Numbered from the stretch's first letter, positions 2,359 through 26,485 are shown. The stretch is DNA of 64,000 nt from Candidatus Roizmanbacteria bacterium RIFOXYC1_FULL_41_16 (GCA_001788295.1 MGBO01000007.1:14263-78262); one strand, 5' to 3'. The notes: generated from the sequence alone by a model not told the origin. A program made the numbers and translations.

Positions 2359-4473
2359 ATGAACTCTTTAAAAAAAAATCTAGATCTGGCCGGTCGGCCT
2401 TTAACTTTTAGCATTGGTGAATTAGCTCAGCAGGCGACTGCCGCTGTTATTACTCAATACGGCGAAACAACCATTTTAACGACCGTGGTTGTGGGCAAAG
2501 AAAATACCCAATTGGACTATTTTCCTTTAAATGTCGAATATGTGGAAAAGTTATATGCCGGTGGTCGAATCAAAGGCTCTCGTTGGATTAAGCGTGAAGG
2601 CCGTCCAAATGATAATGCCATTTTGTCCGGTCGATTAATTGACCGTTCCATCAGGCCATTGTTTGACCCGTCGTTTCGACGTGATGTTCAAATCATCAAC
2701 ACTCTTTTATCTGTTGACGGGATCAATTCACCCGAAATTACCGCAGCTCTGGGAACCGCTTGTGCTTTGTCGCTTTGTTCTATTCCTTTCAAAGGTCCGG
2801 TGGCGACTGTCAAGATTGGTTATTTGATGGAAAGCGATGGTCAGAAAGGTCATTATGTTGTCAATCCCACTTCAGACGAAGAGTTGTTGCAGGATTTTGA
2901 AATTACCTTTTCGATCACTAACGACAAAGTCGTGATGATTGAAGCCGAAGGTAATCAGTTTAGCGAAGAGCAATTTATGGAGGCTTTTTCAGTTGCTCAA
3001 AAAGAAGCAGACAGATTAAACACTCTTTTTAAAGATCTGGCCAAAGAGGCGAATGTTAAACCTTATGTCATGGAACCGGATCAGGCGATTACAATTGCCA
3101 AAGAACTGGCTCAAAAGTATCAGTCCGAATTCACTCAGGTTTTGGAGGAAAGAGCCACTAAAGAAGGAGGTAGTAATAGCACTGCTTTTGATGAGTTGCT
3201 TAATTTGATTGTCGAAAAATACGAAGTTGACGCCAAAGAGGCTGGTCGTATCAGTGAACTGGTCTTTAAGATCTTAATGAAAAAATTGGTTTTGGAGAAG
3301 AAAAAGCGAGTTGATGGCCGAGGTTTTGACGAAATTCGACCGCTTTCAGCCAAGGTGGGAATTTTACCCCGGACACACGGTTCGGCGATTTTCTCCCGCG
3401 GCAGCACTCAAGTATTGTCGATTGCGACTCTAGGCCCGCTCTCAATGCAACAATGGATTGAAAATCCTGAGGGCGAATTTATGAAAAAGTATATCCATCA
3501 TTATTTTATGCCGCCTTATTCTGTCGGTGAAACCGGCCGTAGCGGTTTTGTTTCTCGAAGAGAGATTGGTCATGGTGCCTTGGCGGAAAAAGCAGTTGAA
3601 CAGGTATTGCCGGTTGAAAATAAATTTCCTTATACCGTCAGAGTGGTGTCAGAAGTTTTATCCTCCAACGGTTCTACTTCAATGGCTTCAACCTGTGGTT
3701 CCTCTTTGGTTTTAATGGATGCCGGAGTGCCTATTAAAGAACAGGTTGGTGGAATTGCCGTAGGCATTGTTCGTAAAAACGACGATGAATATCAGCTATT
3801 GACCGATATTATTGGCATTGAGGATTTTTATGGTGAAATGGATTTCAAAGTGGCCGGGACCAAAAACGGCATTACCGCAATTCAATTGGATGTTAAAAGC
3901 TCAGGCATTACTGCCAAAATGATTAAAGAAACTCTTAAATTGGCCAAAGCCGCCAGACTGAAAGTTTTAGAGGTGATGAATAAAGCGATTTCGACCCCTC
4001 GGCCGGAAATGTCCAAATACGCTCCCAGAGTGGAAATCGTGACCCCGCCAGAGGAAAAGATCGGTGAAATTATCGGTCCGGGTGGTAAGAACATCAAAAA
4101 ACTAATTGCCGAAACAGGCTGTGACATTGATGTGGGCGAGGACGGTCGCGTTTCGATTTCCGGAGTTAATCCCCAAGCGGTTAAGCAAGCGGCCGATCGG
4201 ATTCGCAGTATCAGCAAGGTTTATGAACGGGGTGAGGCTTATACCGGCAAAGTGATTAAGGTCTTGGCTTTTGGTGCCATTGTTGAGATTGCGCCAGGCA
4301 AGGAAGGCTTACTTCACGTCAGCCGAATGGGTATGGGTTTTGTCAAAGATGCGAACGAAGTTTTCAAAATTGGTGACACCATCAAGATTATTGTTGATGA
4401 GATTGACGACAAAGGCAGACTTAAACTCAAAGCGGCCGAACCAAAAAAACCGGCTAAAGATTCTCGAGACTAA
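2359..4473 (+). CDS. pnp: polynucleotide phosphorylase
   Basis: 704 aa with two RNase PH-like halves (RPLSAKVGILPRTHGSAIFSRG; DFKVAGT), a KH region (IGEIIGPGGKNIKKL) and an S1 domain (GKVIKVLAFGAIVEIAPGKEGLLHVS). The rpsO-pnp order is conserved. Confidence 0.95.
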   Translation: MNSLKKNLDLAGRPLTFSIGELAQQATAAVITQYGETTILTTVVVGKENTQLDYFPLNVEYVEKLYAGGRIKGSRWIKREGRPNDNAILSGRLIDRSIRPLFDPSFRRDVQIINTLLSVDGINSPEITAALGTACALSLCSIPFKGPVATVKIGYLMESDGQKGHYVVNPTSDEELLQDFEITFSITNDKVVMIEAEGNQFSEEQFMEAFSVAQKEADRLNTLFKDLAKEANVKPYVMEPDQAITIAKELAQKYQSEFTQVLEERATKEGGSNSTAFDELLNLIVEKYEVDAKEAGRISELVFKILMKKLVLEKKKRVDGRGFDEIRPLSAKVGILPRTHGSAIFSRGSTQVLSIATLGPLSMQQWIENPEGEFMKKYIHHYFMPPYSVGETGRSGFVSRREIGHGALAEKAVEQVLPVENKFPYTVRVVSEVLSSNGSTSMASTCGSSLVLMDAGVPIKEQVGGIAVGIVRKNDDEYQLLTDIIGIEDFYGEMDFKVAGTKNGITAIQLDVKSSGITAKMIKETLKLAKAARLKVLEVMNKAISTPRPEMSKYAPRVEIVTPPEEKIGEIIGPGGKNIKKLIAETGCDIDVGEDGRVSISGVNPQAVKQAADRIRSISKVYERGEAYTGKVIKVLAFGAIVEIAPGKEGLLHVSRMGMGFVKDANEVFKIGDTIKIIVDEIDDKGRLKLKAAEPKKPAKDSRD

Positions 4474-22456: not shown

Positions 22457-24568
22457 ATGGCACAGCAAAGTATTTTTACCAAAAACCGTCAGGTCGCGTT
22501 AGACAAAATCCGTAATATCGGTATCATTGCTCACATTGATGCCGGCAAAACCACCACTACCGAAAGAATCCTTTTTTATACCGGCCGAAGCTATAAGATC
22601 GGCGATATTGATGAAGGCACCACCCAGATGGACTGGATGGAGCAGGAGAAAGAGCGTGGCATTACCATTATGTCAGCGGCCACGACCACGTTTTGGCGTG
22701 AAGTCCGCATTAATATTATCGATACTCCCGGCCATGTTGATTTTACCGCCGAAGTGGAGCGTTCCTTAAGAGTGCTCGACGGCGCCGTGGTTATTTTTGA
22801 TGCCGAAGAAGGAGTGCAGGCTCAATCCGAAACCGTTTGGCGCCAAGCCGACAAATACAAAGTCCCTCGGTTATGTTTTATTAACAAGATGGACAAGCTC
22901 GGAGCCGATTATGAAGACACTTTGATTCAGATCCGCGAAAAATTGGGTGCCGTTCCGGTTTCGATCACGATTCCAATCGGTAAAGAAAATGAGTTTAAAG
23001 GCGTGATTGATCTTTTGAGTATGAAAGCCCTTCTTTGGGATCAGGATCCCCAGGGAATAAAATACAGTACAGTTGAGATTCCTGAGGATTATCAGGAAAT
23101 AGCCAAGAAAAAGAAAGCCACCTTGATTGAAATTGTTTCAGAACATGATGACGTTTTAATGGAAAAGTTTATTGCCGAGCAGGCAATTTCAGACGAAGAG
23201 CTGATGCAAGGCATTCGTCGAGCCACCATTGCTTACAAAATCATTCCTATTTATGCCGGTACCTCGTTGCGTAATAAGGGCGTTCAGCCTCTTTTAAACG
23301 GTGTGGTTGATTTTTTACCGTCGCCGGTTGATCTCAAAGAAATCGAAGGCGTTGAGCCCTCAACAGACAAAATTATCAAACGGGCGCTGGTTCCAGAGGA
23401 AAAACTATGTATGCTTTCTTTTAAGCTGCAGTTGGATACGCACGTGGGTAAGTTGACTTATGCCCGTATTTATTCAGGAATACTCAAATCCGGTTCTTAT
23501 GTTTTTAATCCTCGCAGTCGCGAAAAAGAGAGAATCAGCCGGATTTTATTAATGCACGCCAATCAGCGGGAAGAGATTGACAGCGCTTATGCCGGTGAGA
23601 TTGTGGCGTTGGTCGGGCCCAAAAAAGCCAAAACCGGTGATACTCTTACTGAGGAAAATGCGCCAATTGTTTTGGAGACCATTAAATTTCCCGAGCCGGT
23701 GATTTCTTTGGCAATCGAGCCCAAGACTAAGGCTGATCAAGAAAAATTAGGCAATATTTTGCAGAAGTTTTTGGAAGAAGACCCTACTTTTAAGGTGAAA
23801 TACAATCATGAAACCGGACAGACCGTGATTGCCGGCATGGGTGAATTGCACTTGGAAATTATTGTCGATCGGATGAGGCGTGAGTATAACATGAACGCTA
23901 ACGTTGGTAAGCCTCAAGTTGCTTATAAAGAAACGATTACTCAAGAAGCCGAGACTGAAGGGAAATACATCAAACAGTCCGGTGGCCGTGGCCAATATGG
24001 CCATTGTTTTCTAAGACTCAAGCCGTTGCCTCGAGGTGAGGGCTTTAAATTCATCAATGCCATCAAAGGTGGCGCTATTCCTGGAGAGTTTATCGGTTCA
24101 GTGGAAAAAGGCGTTAAAGAGGCTCTCGACAAAGGTGTGCTTGCCGGATACCCGCTGTCGGATTTAGAAGTGACTCTTTATGACGGTAGTTATCATGACG
24201 TCGATTCCTCAGACATTGCCTTTAAAATTGCCGGGTCAATGGCTCTTACTTCCGGCGCTCGCAAAGCCGGACTTACTCTAACCGAGCCGGTGATGAAAAT
24301 GGAAGTCAGCACGCCAGAGATCAATATGGGTACGGTGATTGGCGACTTATCCAGCAAGCGTGCCAAGATCCTAAAAACCACCAAGCGGGGTGACTCAGTC
24401 ACGATTGACGCTTATGCGCCCCTAGCCGAGCTCTCCGGCTATGCCACGATGATTCGTTCACTTACTCAAGGTCGCGGCTTTTTCTATATGGAACCTTCTC
24501 ATTACGAAGAAGTGCCCAAAAACATTCAGGCCAAAATTGTTGAGGAGCGCATGGGCTCCCGCAAATAA
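22457..24568 (+). CDS. fusA: translation elongation factor G
   Basis: IRNIGIIAHIDAGKTTTTERIL, DTPGHVDF, NKMDK. 703 aa, in the conserved position after rpsG. Confidence 0.97.
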   Translation: MAQQSIFTKNRQVALDKIRNIGIIAHIDAGKTTTTERILFYTGRSYKIGDIDEGTTQMDWMEQEKERGITIMSAATTTFWREVRINIIDTPGHVDFTAEVERSLRVLDGAVVIFDAEEGVQAQSETVWRQADKYKVPRLCFINKMDKLGADYEDTLIQIREKLGAVPVSITIPIGKENEFKGVIDLLSMKALLWDQDPQGIKYSTVEIPEDYQEIAKKKKATLIEIVSEHDDVLMEKFIAEQAISDEELMQGIRRATIAYKIIPIYAGTSLRNKGVQPLLNGVVDFLPSPVDLKEIEGVEPSTDKIIKRALVPEEKLCMLSFKLQLDTHVGKLTYARIYSGILKSGSYVFNPRSREKERISRILLMHANQREEIDSAYAGEIVALVGPKKAKTGDTLTEENAPIVLETIKFPEPVISLAIEPKTKADQEKLGNILQKFLEEDPTFKVKYNHETGQTVIAGMGELHLEIIVDRMRREYNMNANVGKPQVAYKETITQEAETEGKYIKQSGGRGQYGHCFLRLKPLPRGEGFKFINAIKGGAIPGEFIGSVEKGVKEALDKGVLAGYPLSDLEVTLYDGSYHDVDSSDIAFKIAGSMALTSGARKAGLTLTEPVMKMEVSTPEINMGTVIGDLSSKRAKILKTTKRGDSVTIDAYAPLAELSGYATMIRSLTQGRGFFYMEPSHYEEVPKNIQAKIVEERMGSRK

Positions 24569-24571
24569 CCG

Positions 24572-24609
24572 TTCCATTTCGGGAATGGAACAGCGCGTGC
24601 TATAGCTCT
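24572..24609 (+). repeat. 38-bp direct repeat, copy 1 (contains hairpin ttccatt-tcggg-aatggaa)
   Basis: ttccatTtcgggaatggaacagcgcgtgCtatagctct. Matches copy 2 at 36 of 38 positions by hand alignment. Confidence 0.85.
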
Positions 24610-24616
24610 CCTAAAC

Positions 24617-24645
24617 TTGCTTTTTACCCCCTAATATCCTATAAT
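24617..24645 (+). promoter_or_regulatory. promoter TTGCTT-N17-TATAAT inside the repeat-flanked cassette
   Basis: ttgctt (24617..24622), a 17-nt spacer, tataat (24640..24645). Followed by a leader hairpin cactgagc-aatttgcc-gctcagtg and the strong SD aaaggaggtga. Confidence 0.6.
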
Positions 24646-24699
24646 ATTTATGCCACTGAGCAATTTGCCGCTCAGTGAGTACTTTGAAAGGAGGTGACT

Positions 24700-24924
24700 A
24701 TGTCACCCATGAAAACTCCACCAGAAACGGTGGAGAAAATAAAAGCCGAACATCCCGAGTCCTGGGATGCCAGCGGGAATTATATTCCCAATGGTATTCC
24801 GGAAGTCGGCAGCCCTGACCAGAAGACTGGTTGCAGGGCTACTGGTTGTGAGTACCTAGTACTCATAACCATTTTCTTTATTGGTGTTGTGTCATTGATC
24901 GTCATACTGACGATACTGACATGA
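24700..24924 (+). CDS. small tail-anchored membrane protein (74 aa), function unknown
   Basis: ATG 7 nt after AGGAGGTG. Hydrophilic N-terminal part and a C-terminal helix YLVLITIFFIGVVSLIVILTILT. Followed by a strong terminator. Confidence 0.6.
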   Translation: MSPMKTPPETVEKIKAEHPESWDASGNYIPNGIPEVGSPDQKTGCRATGCEYLVLITIFFIGVVSLIVILTILT

Positions 24925-24928
24925 CTAT

Positions 24929-24958
24929 GGCCCGGACCTTTGGTCCGGGCCTTTTCTT
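24929..24958 (+). terminator. intrinsic terminator
   Basis: ggcccggacc-ttt-ggtccgggcc followed by ttttctt. Confidence 0.8.
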
Positions 24959-24965
24959 AGCTCTA

Positions 24966-25003
24966 TTCCATATCGGGAATGGAACAGCGCGTGTTATAGC
25001 TCT
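24966..25003 (+). repeat. 38-bp direct repeat, copy 2 (overlaps the 3' end of the DUF192 gene)
   Basis: ttccatAtcgggaatggaacagcgcgtgTtatagctct. Confidence 0.85.
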
Positions 25004-25443
25004 ATATATACAGTATCTTTGAGCTTAATATTGAACTTGTCAATAAAGCCGCTCTTTACTTCTAAAAGTCGGTCAAACGGTTCCTGACTGATAGCGTATT
25101 CAACTTCGTTATTATTGTTCACCGGTGCTTTGACATTTTCCAATAAATAAACGACGCGGTTGCCATTAATAAAAATAAAATCCAAATCAAAAAGCATGTC
25201 TTTCATCCAAAACTGATATCTGTCGGGCTGGTCAAAAACAAACAAAAGCCCCTCGTCATAACCGATGGCGCTGTGATTGGAATAGCCTTGGGTCCGTTTT
25301 TGGTCAGTATCGGCGATTGTGATTGAAATCGTGACTTTATTTTTAATTGTGAGTTTATTCTTACTTGAGGCTGGTTTTGTTTTTAAGCCAAAGCCTGCTA
25401 GAATTAGAATAGTTATTGCAATTAAAAACCACATTTTTTTCAT
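24994..25443 (-). CDS. DUF192-family protein with an N-terminal signal/anchor
   Basis: GYDEGLLFVFDQPDRYQFWMKDMLFDLDFIFINGNRVV resembles DUF192 (COG1430). The start is ambiguous (25464, 25443 or 25434). Confidence 0.7.
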   Translation of the reverse strand: MKKMWFLIAITILILAGFGLKTKPASSKNKLTIKNKVTISITIADTDQKRTQGYSNHSAIGYDEGLLFVFDQPDRYQFWMKDMLFDLDFIFINGNRVVYLLENVKAPVNNNNEVEYAISQEPFDRLLEVKSGFIDKFNIKLKDTVYIEL

Positions 25444-26485
25444 GACCAAAATTAAGCTTATCACAGATGCCAGTTATGCAACAGCCTGGAATCGGGTAGT
25501 GACTCACCCTTTGCAAACTTGGGAGTGGGGAGAAATCAGGCAAAAAACCGGCAACCAGATTTTGCGTTTGGCTCTTGTCAACGACCAGGATCAAATTCAG
25601 CAAGCCTTTCTGTTCACTCTTCACTCATTGCCTTGGGGCAAGCAGATTATCAACTATGCCAAGGGCCCGTTTTTGCCAGAAGCCGTTTGGCAATATCTCA
25701 AAGAACATTATCATCAAACTGTTTTGTTGGTCAAACTTGAACCTGAGGTTTTTATTGAGGAGGCGGGAAAGTACCAGCTACCCATTTATAAACAGCACTG
25801 GCAAGACAATGGCCTGGATTTTTATCTATCCAAATCGCCTGTTTTTGCCAGACACACTTTTATACTGGACCTTGAGCCAAATGAAGCCAAATTATTGAGC
25901 CTGATGAAAAGTAAAACTCGCTACAACATCAATCTAGCCCGGCGCAAAGGCGTTGTTATTAAAGATGAAACCAGCGATCCGGCGGCGTTTTCGATTTTTT
26001 TTAAGCTGTATCAGCAGACCATCAAGCGCCAAAACTATCTGGGCCATTCACAAAAATACCATCAAACAGTTTGGGAAATTATGAAGCAGGCTGGAGTTGC
26101 CAAAATTCTGACTGCTTATTATCAAAATGAGCCATTGTCTAGTTATACCCTGTTTTTCTACAAAAACACTGCTTATTATCTTTATGGTGGCTCAAGTTCT
26201 AGACACAAAGAGGTGATGGCCTCCAATCTGCTAATGTGGGAAGCGCTGTTACTGGCAAAAAAGCAAGGAATGAAATACTTTGATCTTTGGGGGGCTTTGG
26301 AAAAAAACTATTCCCCCAATCATCCTTGGGCCGGCTTTCATCGTTTCAAAGAGGGCTACGGCGGTCTTCATCAAGCATATTTACCCACGCTCGACGTTGT
26401 CTTTGATCCAATCGGATATTGGTTTTTCAGCCTGTTGTGGCCGCTGCGAATCAAAATTCTGGAGTTGATCAGGCGCTTTTTTTAA
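25442..26485 (+). CDS. FemAB-family peptidoglycan interpeptide-bridge aminoacyltransferase-like protein
   Basis: KSKTRYNINLARRKGVVI plus a typical FemAB-like N-terminus (QTWEWGEIRQ). The ORF extends to 25319, but that part lies antisense within the DUF192 gene. Confidence 0.7.
   Translation: MTKIKLITDASYATAWNRVVTHPLQTWEWGEIRQKTGNQILRLALVNDQDQIQQAFLFTLHSLPWGKQIINYAKGPFLPEAVWQYLKEHYHQTVLLVKLEPEVFIEEAGKYQLPIYKQHWQDNGLDFYLSKSPVFARHTFILDLEPNEAKLLSLMKSKTRYNINLARRKGVVIKDETSDPAAFSIFFKLYQQTIKRQNYLGHSQKYHQTVWEIMKQAGVAKILTAYYQNEPLSSYTLFFYKNTAYYLYGGSSSRHKEVMASNLLMWEALLLAKKQGMKYFDLWGALEKNYSPNHPWAGFHRFKEGYGGLHQAYLPTLDVVFDPIGYWFFSLLWPLRIKILELIRRFF

What the first reader, a model, noticed from the sequence alone, without database searches (positions are those of the whole stretch)
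24572..25003. Self-contained small-gene cassette flanked by 38-bp direct repeats, inserted right after fusA
Two 38-bp repeats, identical at 36 of 38 positions, bracket a 356-bp insert. Each repeat contains a TTCCAT(T)...AATGGAA hairpin.

The insert carries its own TTGCTT-N17-TATAAT promoter, a leader hairpin, a perfect AGGAGGTG Shine-Dalgarno, a 74-codon ORF for a tail-anchored membrane peptide, and a strong GC-rich terminator.

Copy 2 of the repeat overlaps the 3' end (VYIEL-stop) of the convergent DUF192 gene. Copy 1 sits 3 nt after the fusA stop. So the original fusA/DUF192 junction appears to have been duplicated by the insertion.

This looks like a miniature mobile or recombined expression cassette. 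I cannot assign the peptide to a family; a small membrane toxin, an immunity protein or an entry-exclusion-like protein are all conceivable.
Basis: seen in the sequence. Interest (0 to 1): 0.55.

Follow-up and report, generated by a model that had tools for sequence, protein, structure and literature searches.

The report
Small membrane-protein gene inserted after fusA
A complete miniature gene for a 74-residue membrane-anchored protein has been inserted into the short hairpin spacer between two convergent genes of a Roizmanbacteria genome, with that spacer now copied on both sides; relatives keep the undisturbed site, so the insertion is real, but it was found only at this locus and its function is unknown.

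Summary
Two 38-nt direct repeats (24572-24609 and 24966-25003, 36/38 identical) bracket a 356-bp unit. The unit holds a promoter, a 5' hairpin, a Shine-Dalgarno site, a 74-codon ORF and a strong terminator.

The window is Candidatus Roizmanbacteria RIFOXYA1_FULL_41_12. Relatives show the polarity. Eight lineages have fusA and DUF192 abutting, 11-26 nt apart. Four of them carry a single copy of the same hairpin. Five lineages carry the unit at exactly this site.

The repeats are therefore two copies of the native junction: the hairpin plus the last codons of DUF192. The hairpin covaries, so it is a selected structure and not a REP-type element.

The ORF is truly coding (dN/dS about 0.2). It always encodes a C-terminally anchored peptide. 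Its sequence varies strongly and is mosaic between lineages, while the promoter and leader are almost invariant. No family, phage or plasmid match was found.

Mobility is not supported, because every copy found sits at this junction. The cassette is older than its near-identical flanks, so the copies must have been homogenised or re-made by recombination.

This is a real, mildly unusual accessory insertion of unknown function.

The parts
22457..24568 (+). fusA (EF-G), the last gene of the rpoB-rpoC-rpsL-rpsG-fusA row. Its stop codon lies 3 nt before repeat copy 1.
   Evidence: ORF. Pfam EF-G domains on the identical gene in L001.
24572..24609 (.). Repeat copy 1. It holds the junction hairpin (24572-24590), the 9-nt stretch CAGCGCGTG, and a non-functional copy of the DUF192 3' end (reverse complement reads GAG CTA TAG = E L stop).
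   Evidence: Hairpin covariation across lineages.
24617..24645 (+). Promoter of the small gene: TTGCTT, 17 nt, TATAAT. The stretch AATATCCTATAATATTT is invariant in all five occupied lineages.
   Evidence: Sequence. Alignments. Not listed by the consensus scan because the -35 matches only 3 of 6 positions.
24654..24677 (+). 5'-UTR stem-loop: 8 bp (CACTGAGC/GCTCAGTG) with an 8-nt loop, starting a few nt after the expected transcription start.
   Evidence: Fold. It is 100% paired in five lineages, with 2 compensatory pairs and G-U wobbles that pair only in the + strand RNA.
24689..24696 (+). Shine-Dalgarno site AGGAGGTG; its AGGAGG core (24689-24694) ends 5 nt before the ATG.
   Evidence: Conserved in relatives.
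24700..24924 (+). 74-codon ORF for a tail-anchored membrane peptide. Residues 1-50 are hydrophilic and a single hydrophobic helix runs from about residue 52 to 74. NCBI annotates it as 'hypothetical protein A2209_01660', called from the second ATG (71 aa).
   Evidence: dN/dS of 0.21 against L007. Hydropathy. AF2 helix 50-73 with pLDDT 85-93. The MSP start is conserved in L007 and L035.
24929..24957 (+). Intrinsic terminator of the small gene: 10-bp stem with 9 G-C pairs, a 3-nt loop and a TTTTCTT tail.
   Evidence: Conserved with stem changes in relatives.
24958..24966 (.). TAGCTCTAT, a third partial copy of the DUF192 3' end (reverse complement reads ATA GAG CTA), sitting directly left of copy 2. 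With 24997-25005 it brackets copy 2.
   Evidence: only 2 occurrences in 64 kb, 0.18 expected.
24966..25003 (.). Repeat copy 2. It holds the junction hairpin (24966-24984), CAGCGCGTG, and the real stop codon and last two codons of DUF192.
24994..25443 (-). DUF192 (PF02643) gene, convergent with fusA. Its C-terminus ...VYIEL is one residue longer than the ...LE of close relatives.

Best explanation
The 356-bp unit is a lineage-restricted accessory gene. It was inserted into the very short spacer between the convergent fusA and DUF192 genes in a subgroup of Roizmanbacteria.

In its undisturbed state, the spacer of the closer relatives is 25-28 nt long and consists almost entirely of one conserved stem-loop. 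That stem-loop probably serves as the shared 3'-end hairpin of both transcripts. Read on the DUF192 strand, it is followed by the T-rich reverse complement of fusA's last codons, which makes it terminator-like.

In the window genome, the hairpin, its 9-nt 3' flank and the last 10 nt of DUF192 now lie on both sides of the insert. fusA and DUF192 therefore each keep a 3' hairpin. The small gene sits between them as an insulated transcription unit with four parts:
- a TATAAT promoter;
- a 5'-terminal hairpin of the mRNA-stabiliser type;
- a strong ribosome-binding site;
- a GC-rich intrinsic terminator.

Its product is a small protein with a hydrophilic, probably cytoplasmic N-terminal part of 35-50 residues and one membrane helix at the extreme C-terminus.

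The two junction copies are younger than the cassette. They have been kept alike, or re-made, by recombination between the copies. The same recombination would delete the cassette precisely and leave a single hairpin, which fits the patchy presence and absence among relatives.

Shown:
- the polarity of the insertion;
- the junction origin of the repeats;
- selection on both hairpins;
- coding status and architecture of the peptide;
- restriction of the cassette to this locus.

Inferred:
- the terminator or stabiliser role of the hairpins;
- gene conversion between the copies;
- deletion through the repeats;
- peptide topology.

Unknown:
- what the peptide does;
- how the DNA first entered the site.
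For: Empty sites:
- L036: TAA-CCA-TTCCAAATCGGGAATGGAA-TAGC-TTA.
- L017/L038: hairpin TTCCAATTCGGGGATGGAA.
- L010 and L011 carry a single hairpin.
- L012, L018, L019 and L022 are also empty.

Occupied sites, all with the same flanking genes: the window, L006/L007, L035, L008/L009 and L014/L037.

The junction duplication is also seen in L008: 22 nt, 20/22 identical.

Junction hairpin: 87.5% of cells are paired, and 4 of 8 pairs show changes on both sides. Slid controls give 35-58% pairing. The hairpin occurs only at this junction in all 43 loci fetched.

Leader hairpin: 100% paired, with 2 compensatory pairs.

Promoter and leader are 72-88% identical between lineages whose synonymous sites are near saturation.

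Peptide: dN/dS is 0.34/1.64 (window vs L007) and 0.12/0.61 (L008 vs L037). All five peptides have one hydrophobic 19-mer with 0-2 residues after it. AF2 predicts a helix at 50-73.

Age: cassette dS between window and L007 (1.64) is about the same as host dS (1.2-1.9). Window, L006 and L035 form a clade with 82% bootstrap support. The cassette therefore predates that split.

L008 copy 1 is flagged as terminator-like on the DUF192 strand.
Against: - Neither repeat copy is a canonical intrinsic terminator. One search does not list them, there are only 2-3 G-C pairs, and no T run follows on the + strand.
- Gene conversion between 38-nt repeats is inferred, not shown.
- L006/L007 and L035 lack copy 2, and L035 and L037 have only a remnant of copy 1. 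The duplication is therefore dispensable and may not date from the insertion.
- L008, which is occupied, is nested among empty relatives at 99-100% bootstrap support. This needs either three precise losses or a second gain.
- The tree is neighbour-joining on three genes with missing data.
- No source of the cassette was found.
Confidence: 0.55

Rival explanations
1. The unit is a non-autonomous, site-specific mobile cassette. It excises as a circle carrying one copy of the hairpin site and re-integrates at the fusA/DUF192 hairpin, either through a recombinase supplied in trans or through RecA-dependent Campbell-type crossover on 20-40 nt of homology. Each integration re-creates fresh, near-identical direct repeats from the local junction sequence.
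For: - In both the window and L008 the repeats are made of that lineage's own stem variant: TTCC../..GGAA in the window and TCGC../..GCGA in L008.
- The repeats are 91-95% identical, although the cassette is old.
- Occupied L008 is sister to empty L036 and nested among empty relatives.
- The repeat includes the 3' end of the target gene, as att sites of integrative elements do.
- L035 carries a mosaic cassette, so alleles do move between lineages.
- A different gene in L021 sits after fusA, flanked by a perfect 16-nt repeat that contains the fusA stop codon.
Against: - Every cassette copy found is at this one junction.
- No copy was found elsewhere in 64 kb, in viral contigs, phages or plasmids.
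- No integrase or transposase lies within 10 kb on either side.
- There are no terminal inverted repeats.
- All 24 contigs read from the same population are occupied and identical, with no empty allele.
- L008's fusA end matches its empty sister L036, not the other type-B carrier L037.
Confidence: 0.2
2. The cassette entered once without any duplication. The second hairpin copy was added later and independently in the window and L008 lineages, by template switching or a patch of gene conversion anchored on microhomology. The copying restored a 3' hairpin to the gene that had lost it.
For: - The sister lineages L006/L007 and L035 have no copy 2. There the cassette terminator tail runs straight into the DUF192 stop codon.
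- Copy 2 in the window is bracketed by the 9-mer TAGCTCTAT.
- A recent origin would explain the 36/38 identity without repeated conversion.
Against: - It needs the same rare event twice, in the window and in L008.
- Copy 1 carries DUF192 coding sequence (E-L-stop), so information moved from the DUF192 side to the fusA side, or both copies descend from one junction.
- L037 still has a hairpin on the DUF192 side and a half-hairpin remnant on the fusA side. L035 also has a possible remnant on the fusA side. Both fit an ancestral two-copy state followed by decay.
Confidence: 0.15
3. The unit is a type I toxin-antitoxin-like locus or a dual-function small RNA. On this view the stable, structured transcript matters as much as the hydrophobic peptide, which would damage membranes when over-produced.
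For: - It encodes a small hydrophobic peptide.
- It has a strong promoter and SD, a conserved 5' hairpin and a strong terminator.
- It lies between genes.
- The non-coding framework is conserved more strongly than the coding part.
Against: - The ORF is under purifying selection.
- The hydrophobic helix is at the extreme C-terminus, after a 35-50-residue hydrophilic part, unlike Hok, Fst, TisB or Ldr-type toxins (from my own knowledge of those families).
- No antisense promoter was found.
- No Rfam match came near the gathering score.
- No Pfam, NCBIfam or PADLOC match was found.
Confidence: 0.07
4. The repeat is a REP-type dispersed element, a chance match, or an assembly artefact unrelated to the insert.
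For: It is a hairpin located between convergent genes, as REP elements are.
Against: - Only two copies occur in 64 kb, with 0 expected by chance.
- The hairpin is found only at this junction in 43 loci.
- The arrangement is identical in independent assemblies.
- Orthologous single copies sit at the same place in relatives.
Confidence: 0.02

Closest known systems
attL/attR direct repeats of integrative elements that insert into the 3' end of a gene
   Same: Direct repeats of 16-40 nt flank the insert. The repeat contains the 3' end and stop codon of the target gene, so the gene stays intact. Relatives have an empty site with one copy.
   Different: The insert is only 356 bp and has a single 74-codon ORF. 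There is no integrase in the element or within 10 kb on either side. No second location, circular form or phage or plasmid relative was found.
Target-site duplications of insertion sequences and MITEs
   Same: A duplicated target brackets the insert, and unoccupied sites exist.
   Different: The duplication is 38 nt (22 nt in L008), compared with 2-15 nt for known transposases. There are no terminal inverted repeats and only one copy. The unit carries a complete expressed gene.
Integron gene cassettes (ORF plus hairpin-forming attC)
   Same: It is a single small ORF unit associated with an imperfect palindrome, and the ORF content is variable at one fixed site.
   Different: It has its own promoter and terminator. 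There is no GTTRRRY core, no intI or attI, and no array. The palindrome is the native spacer of the host genes.
REP/BIME-type 3' hairpins between convergent genes
   Same: It is a short stem-loop in the spacer of convergent genes that is conserved in structure. A role in 3'-end formation or protection is plausible.
   Different: It is not dispersed. It occurs at a single locus and is orthologous across species.
Type I toxins and other small bacterial membrane proteins
   Same: The product is under 80 residues with one transmembrane helix. The mRNA is strongly expressed and structured. The gene is an orphan and fast-evolving.
   Different: The architecture is tail-anchored, with a long hydrophilic N-terminal part. 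No antitoxin RNA was found, and there is no sequence similarity to any described family.

Membership tests
Transposable element / MITE | Terminal inverted repeats at the ends of the insert | tested here: not met
   The repeat search of 24000-25600 finds no inverted repeat at the cassette ends.
Transposable element / MITE | Several copies in the genome or in related genomes at different sites | tested here: not met
   One copy in the window. The metagenome scan finds the framework only at fusA/DUF192. None was found in the representative genomes or viral contigs. The complete source genome was not available.
Transposable element / MITE | Short target-site duplication (2-15 nt) and empty sites with one target copy | tested here: inconclusive
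   Empty sites with one copy exist. However, the duplication is 38 nt and 22 nt in L008, outside the known range.
Site-specific integrative element (attL/attR) | Direct repeats that include the 3' end of the target gene | tested here: met
   Both copies contain GAG CTA plus a stop codon of DUF192 on the minus strand.
Site-specific integrative element (attL/attR) | Integrase or recombinase encoded in or next to the element | tested here: not met
   The insert holds only the 74-codon ORF. Genes within 10 kb on either side carry no recombinase Pfam family.
Site-specific integrative element (attL/attR) | Excised circular form, or empty alleles in the same population | tested here: not met
   All 24 contigs read with the identical DUF192 are occupied. 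Raw reads could not be examined.
Integron gene cassette | attC with R''/L''-L'/R' boxes and a GTTRRRY core, with intI and attI nearby | tested here: not met
   The repeat contains no GTTRRRY core when read directly. No integrase family is present in the neighbourhood. The ORF has its own promoter.
REP/BIME dispersed palindromes | Tens to hundreds of copies per genome | tested here: not met
   Two copies in 64 kb, both at this junction. The hairpin occurs only at the junction in 43 loci.
Rho-independent terminator (for 24929-24957) | G+C-rich stem-loop followed by a T run on the transcribed strand | tested here: met
   10-bp stem with 9 G-C pairs and a TTTTCTT tail. Folding energy -22.7 kcal/mol, z = -5.3. 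Conserved in four relatives.
Type I toxin-antitoxin | Antisense or overlapping antitoxin RNA with its own promoter | tested here: inconclusive
   No promoter-like site was found on the minus strand of the cassette, and no Rfam family matched. A consensus scan cannot exclude one.
Type I toxin-antitoxin | Toxicity of the peptide on over-expression | not testable with these tools
   This needs an experiment.
Tail-anchored membrane proteins (an architecture, not a homology family) | A single transmembrane helix at the extreme C-terminus and no N-terminal signal peptide | tested here: met
   In all five peptides the best 19-residue hydrophobic window ends 0-2 residues before the C-terminus. AF2 predicts a helix at 50-73 with pLDDT 85-93.
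Any described protein family (Pfam, NCBIfam, PHROGs, PADLOC) | A significant profile match | tested here: not met
   No Pfam, NCBIfam or PADLOC hit at E <= 10. PHROG hits all have E >= 0.15.

The most novel reading that the evidence does not exclude
A minimal gene cassette (promoter, one small ORF, terminator, and no recombinase of its own) repeatedly integrates at, and excises from, a structured spacer downstream of fusA in Roizmanbacteria. Each integration duplicates a 16-38-nt junction segment. The unrelated 183-aa gene in L021, flanked by a perfect 16-nt copy of the fusA end, would be a second product of the same unknown mechanism. That would be a new way in which reduced, symbiotic CPR genomes acquire and swap small accessory genes.
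Probability: 0.15. Interest if true: 0.7.

Novelty: new variant of a known kind. Interest (0 to 1): 0.4.

Why it matters
Candidate Phyla Radiation (CPR) bacteria have very small genomes, and little is known about how they gain new genes. This locus is a clean natural example:
- the empty site, the occupied site and the duplicated junction can all be read at single-base resolution;
- the inserted gene is complete and expressed-looking;
- its product is a fast-changing membrane-anchored peptide, a class that often mediates interactions with hosts, phages or neighbours.

If the junction duplication reflects a dedicated insertion mechanism, it would be new. If it does not, the locus is still a useful, well-delimited case of accessory-gene turnover and of concerted evolution of short repeats. 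It also adds an unannotated small-protein family to be tested.

Tried and rejected
- Rfam at gathering score on the whole window, and at E <= 10 on 24450-25100. Only terminator-driven sub-threshold matches were found.
- Pfam, NCBIfam, PHROGs and PADLOC on all five peptides. Nothing was found.
- Word-indexed homology searches with the type A and type B peptides. Each returned only two clusters, all at this locus.
- Exhaustive profile search of 1.84 billion representatives. It returned only the query itself and P0046, a 2844-aa repeat protein that matches a 12-residue motif (DASGNYxIxGxP) eight times. I regard this as a short-motif coincidence, because the peptide's soluble part is too short for that repeat domain.
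- BLASTP of type A against type B gives E = 1.8. The L035 peptide nevertheless bridges them: its N-terminus resembles type A, while its basic stretch and its C-terminal helix resemble type B. I therefore treat them as one family, without statistical proof.
- Cassette pattern scans of the representative genomes and viral contigs gave 0 hits. blastn and tblastn against phages and plasmids gave no match.
- Exact look-up of the 156-aa DUF192 ORF failed because the called gene starts further downstream.
- A search for an empty allele in the same population found none.
- Literature searches found no description of this arrangement or peptide.
- I considered SecE-like small translocon subunits because of the gene neighbourhood and architecture. 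I rejected this, since there was no NCBIfam or Pfam match.

Full report
**What is in the sequence**

The region reads as follows:
- the fusA stop codon at 24566-24568, then CCG;
- a 38-nt element at 24572-24609, followed by a 356-bp unit;
- the same 38-nt element again at 24966-25003, identical at 36 of 38 positions.

No other copy exists in the 64-kb window with up to 3 mismatches, and none is expected by chance.

Each copy starts with a stem-loop, TTCCAT(T/A)TCGGGAATGGAA. This is followed by CAGCGCGTG and (C/T)TATAGCTCT. In copy 2 that last stretch is the stop codon and the last two codons of the convergent DUF192 gene. Copy 1 holds a useless duplicate of them.

The unit between the copies contains:
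- the promoter TTGCTT-N17-TATAAT at 24617-24645. The -35 hexamer matches the consensus at 3 of 6 positions, so the scan does not list it;
- an 8-bp stem-loop at 24654-24677;
- the Shine-Dalgarno site AGGAGGTG;
- an ATG at 24700 opening a 74-codon ORF;
- a 10-bp terminator stem with 9 G-C pairs and a T tail at 24929-24957.

I also found that TAGCTCTAT occurs just left of copy 2 as well as at its right end. These are the only two occurrences in the window.

**Source and reality**

The peptide is identical to 'hypothetical protein A2209_01660' of Candidatus Roizmanbacteria bacterium RIFOXYA1_FULL_41_12. The same arrangement, 99.9-100% identical, is present in independent assemblies from four sources. 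It is therefore not an assembly artefact.

**Relatives decide the polarity**

I used DUF192 homologues to fetch their contigs. I also scanned representative genomes and then read the junctions.

The gene order NUDIX-Fic-MscS-FemAB-DUF192 / fusA-rpsG-rpsL-rpoC is conserved.

Eight lineages have an empty junction with fusA and DUF192 11-26 nt apart. Four of them carry one copy of the hairpin:

| Locus | Junction |
|---|---|
| L036 | TAA-CCA-TTCCAAATCGGGAATGGAA-TAGC-TTA |
| L017/L038 | TTCCAATTCGGGGATGGAA |
| L010, L011 | CCACATCGGATGTGG type |

L012 and the more distant L018, L019 and L022 are also empty.

Five lineages are occupied: the window, L006/L007, L035, L008/L009 and L014/L037. Because the outgroups are empty, the cassette is an insertion. 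The repeats are two copies of the native junction.

Across these lineages the junction hairpin keeps its pairing through compensatory changes. 87.5% of cells are paired, and 4 of 8 pairs changed on both sides. Slid controls give 35-58% pairing. The hairpin occurs nowhere else in the 43 loci fetched. It is therefore a selected local structure, not a dispersed REP element.

On the DUF192 strand the hairpin is followed by the T-rich complement of fusA's last codons, and the scan calls it terminator-like in L008. A role as a shared 3' hairpin for both genes is my inference.

**The cassette is a real gene with a conserved frame and a variable product**

The promoter and leader are 72-88% identical between lineages, and AATATCCTATAATATTT is invariant. 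Synonymous sites of the flanking genes are close to saturation over the same comparisons (dS 0.7 to more than 2).

The leader stem is paired in all five lineages. It has two compensatory pairs and G-U wobbles that pair only in the + strand RNA. This points to an mRNA 5' hairpin rather than a DNA operator.

The ORF is under purifying selection:

| Comparison | dN | dS | Source |
|---|---|---|---|
| window vs L007 | 0.34 | 1.64 | |
| L008 vs L037 | 0.12 | 0.61 | |

The products nevertheless differ greatly:
- type A is 74 aa (window, L007);
- type A' is 59 aa (L035);
- type B is 60-61 aa (L008, L037).

Types A and B are not significantly similar. L035 bridges them: its N-terminus is like A, and its basic stretch and C-terminal helix are like B.

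L035 is also a mosaic at the DNA level. It is 85-88% identical to L007 over the first 120 nt, then about 37%. Yet the two hosts are close (dS 0.4-0.55). Cassette alleles are therefore exchanged between lineages.

All five products share one architecture: a hydrophilic part of 35-50 residues and a single hydrophobic helix ending 0-2 residues before the C-terminus. AF2 supports this with a helix at 50-73 and pLDDT 85-93.

No family match of any kind was found. No relative was found outside this locus, and none in phages or plasmids.

**How old are the repeats?**

Window, L006 and L035 form a clade with 82% bootstrap support. They share type-A-like cassettes whose divergence equals that of the hosts. 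The cassette therefore predates that split.

Over that time two independent neutral copies should have diverged heavily. From dS of at least 1.2 I estimate roughly 40-60% identity for the 19 nt beyond the hairpin. The observed value is 18 of 19.

L008 shows the same thing. Its two copies (20 of 22 identical) share a lineage-specific stem variant (TCGC.../...GCGA) that differs from its empty sister L036.

The other carriers differ in what they retain:
- L006/L007 keep only the fusA-side copy;
- L037 keeps a diverged hairpin on the DUF192 side and a half-hairpin remnant on the fusA side;
- L035 keeps almost nothing.

The simplest reading is an ancestral two-copy state that decays in some lineages. 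In others it is homogenised, or re-created, by recombination between the copies. Recombination between the copies would also delete the cassette precisely.

That could explain why occupied L008 is nested among empty L036, L011 and L010 at 99%, 100% and 80% bootstrap support. A second gain is the alternative.

The tree is neighbour-joining on three genes with missing data. The count of gains and losses is therefore not settled.

**Is it mobile?**

Points in favour:
- the repeats are lineage-specific and near-identical;
- the distribution is patchy;
- the L035 cassette is a mosaic;
- there is an independent case in L021. There a different 183-aa orphan gene with its own promoter follows fusA and is flanked by a perfect 16-nt repeat containing the fusA stop codon, while its sister L022 has the genes abutting.

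Points against:
- all cassette copies found anywhere sit at this one junction;
- there is no second copy in the window;
- there are no terminal inverted repeats;
- no recombinase lies within 10 kb on either side;
- there is no empty allele among the 24 contigs read from the same population;
- there is no phage, plasmid or viral relative.

I therefore rate dedicated mobility as possible but unproven, at about 0.2.

**Comparison with known systems**

The arrangement works most like the attL/attR repeats of elements that integrate into the 3' end of a gene. It fails the membership test on the recombinase and on any sign of excision.

It is not an IS or MITE. The duplication is too long, there are no inverted ends, and there is only one copy. 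It is not an integron cassette or a REP element either.

The product has the architecture of a tail-anchored membrane protein. It resembles type I toxins only in size and hydrophobicity.

**Verdict**

The core of the interpretation, an insertion with a duplicated junction, is supported by unoccupied sites. The word 'mobile' is not supported, and the function of the peptide is unknown.

It is a well-resolved, mildly unusual accessory-gene insertion in a CPR genome. I rate it a new variant of a known kind, with an interest of about 0.4.

Noticed in passing
L021 1561-2185 (Ca. Roizmanbacteria P6-15, JANLHK010000012.1): A different orphan gene (183 aa, N-terminal hydrophobic segment, own TTGTCA...TATAAT promoter, no Pfam hit) sits directly after fusA. 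It is flanked by a perfect 16-nt direct repeat, GAATTACGCAGTAGCG, which contains fusA's stop codon and last codons. The sister genome L022 has fusA and DUF192 abutting. This is a second, independent case of a gene inserted after fusA with junction duplication.
   Followed up: partly
L035 3433-3748 (minus strand in locus coordinates): The cassette here is a mosaic. Promoter, leader and the first 12 or so codons are 85-88% identical to L007, and the rest about 37%. Yet the two hosts are close (dS 0.4-0.55). The C-terminal half of the peptide resembles type B.
   Followed up: partly
L020 2558-3196: In a more distant relative, a 212-aa ORF fills a roughly 770-nt gap between DUF192 and fusA without flanking repeats. 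The fusA/DUF192 junction therefore seems to be a recurrent insertion point.
   Followed up: no
window 24958-24966 and 24997-25005: The 9-mer TAGCTCTAT (reverse complement reads ATA GAG CTA, the last sense codons of DUF192) occurs only twice in 64 kb and brackets repeat copy 2. A third partial copy of the DUF192 end is thus fused to the cassette terminator tail. It may be a microhomology footprint of the event that made copy 2.
   Followed up: partly
P0046 (2844-aa protein from the representative library), residues about 1939-1964 and seven other stretches: This giant repeat protein shares the motif DASGNYxIxGxP with residues 23-34 of the window peptide. E = 2.3e-10 only because eight repeats add up, so it is probably a coincidence of a short beta-hairpin motif.
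   Followed up: partly
window 25645-25680 and 25817-25852: A 36-nt imperfect direct repeat (78% identical) lies inside the FemAB-family gene. It probably reflects that family's internal domain duplication, since Pfam lists FemAB twice on the product.
   Followed up: no
L018 about 3950-3977: The empty fusA/DUF192 spacer of this relative contains a tandem TTTTCAGTTT x2 instead of the hairpin.
   Followed up: no
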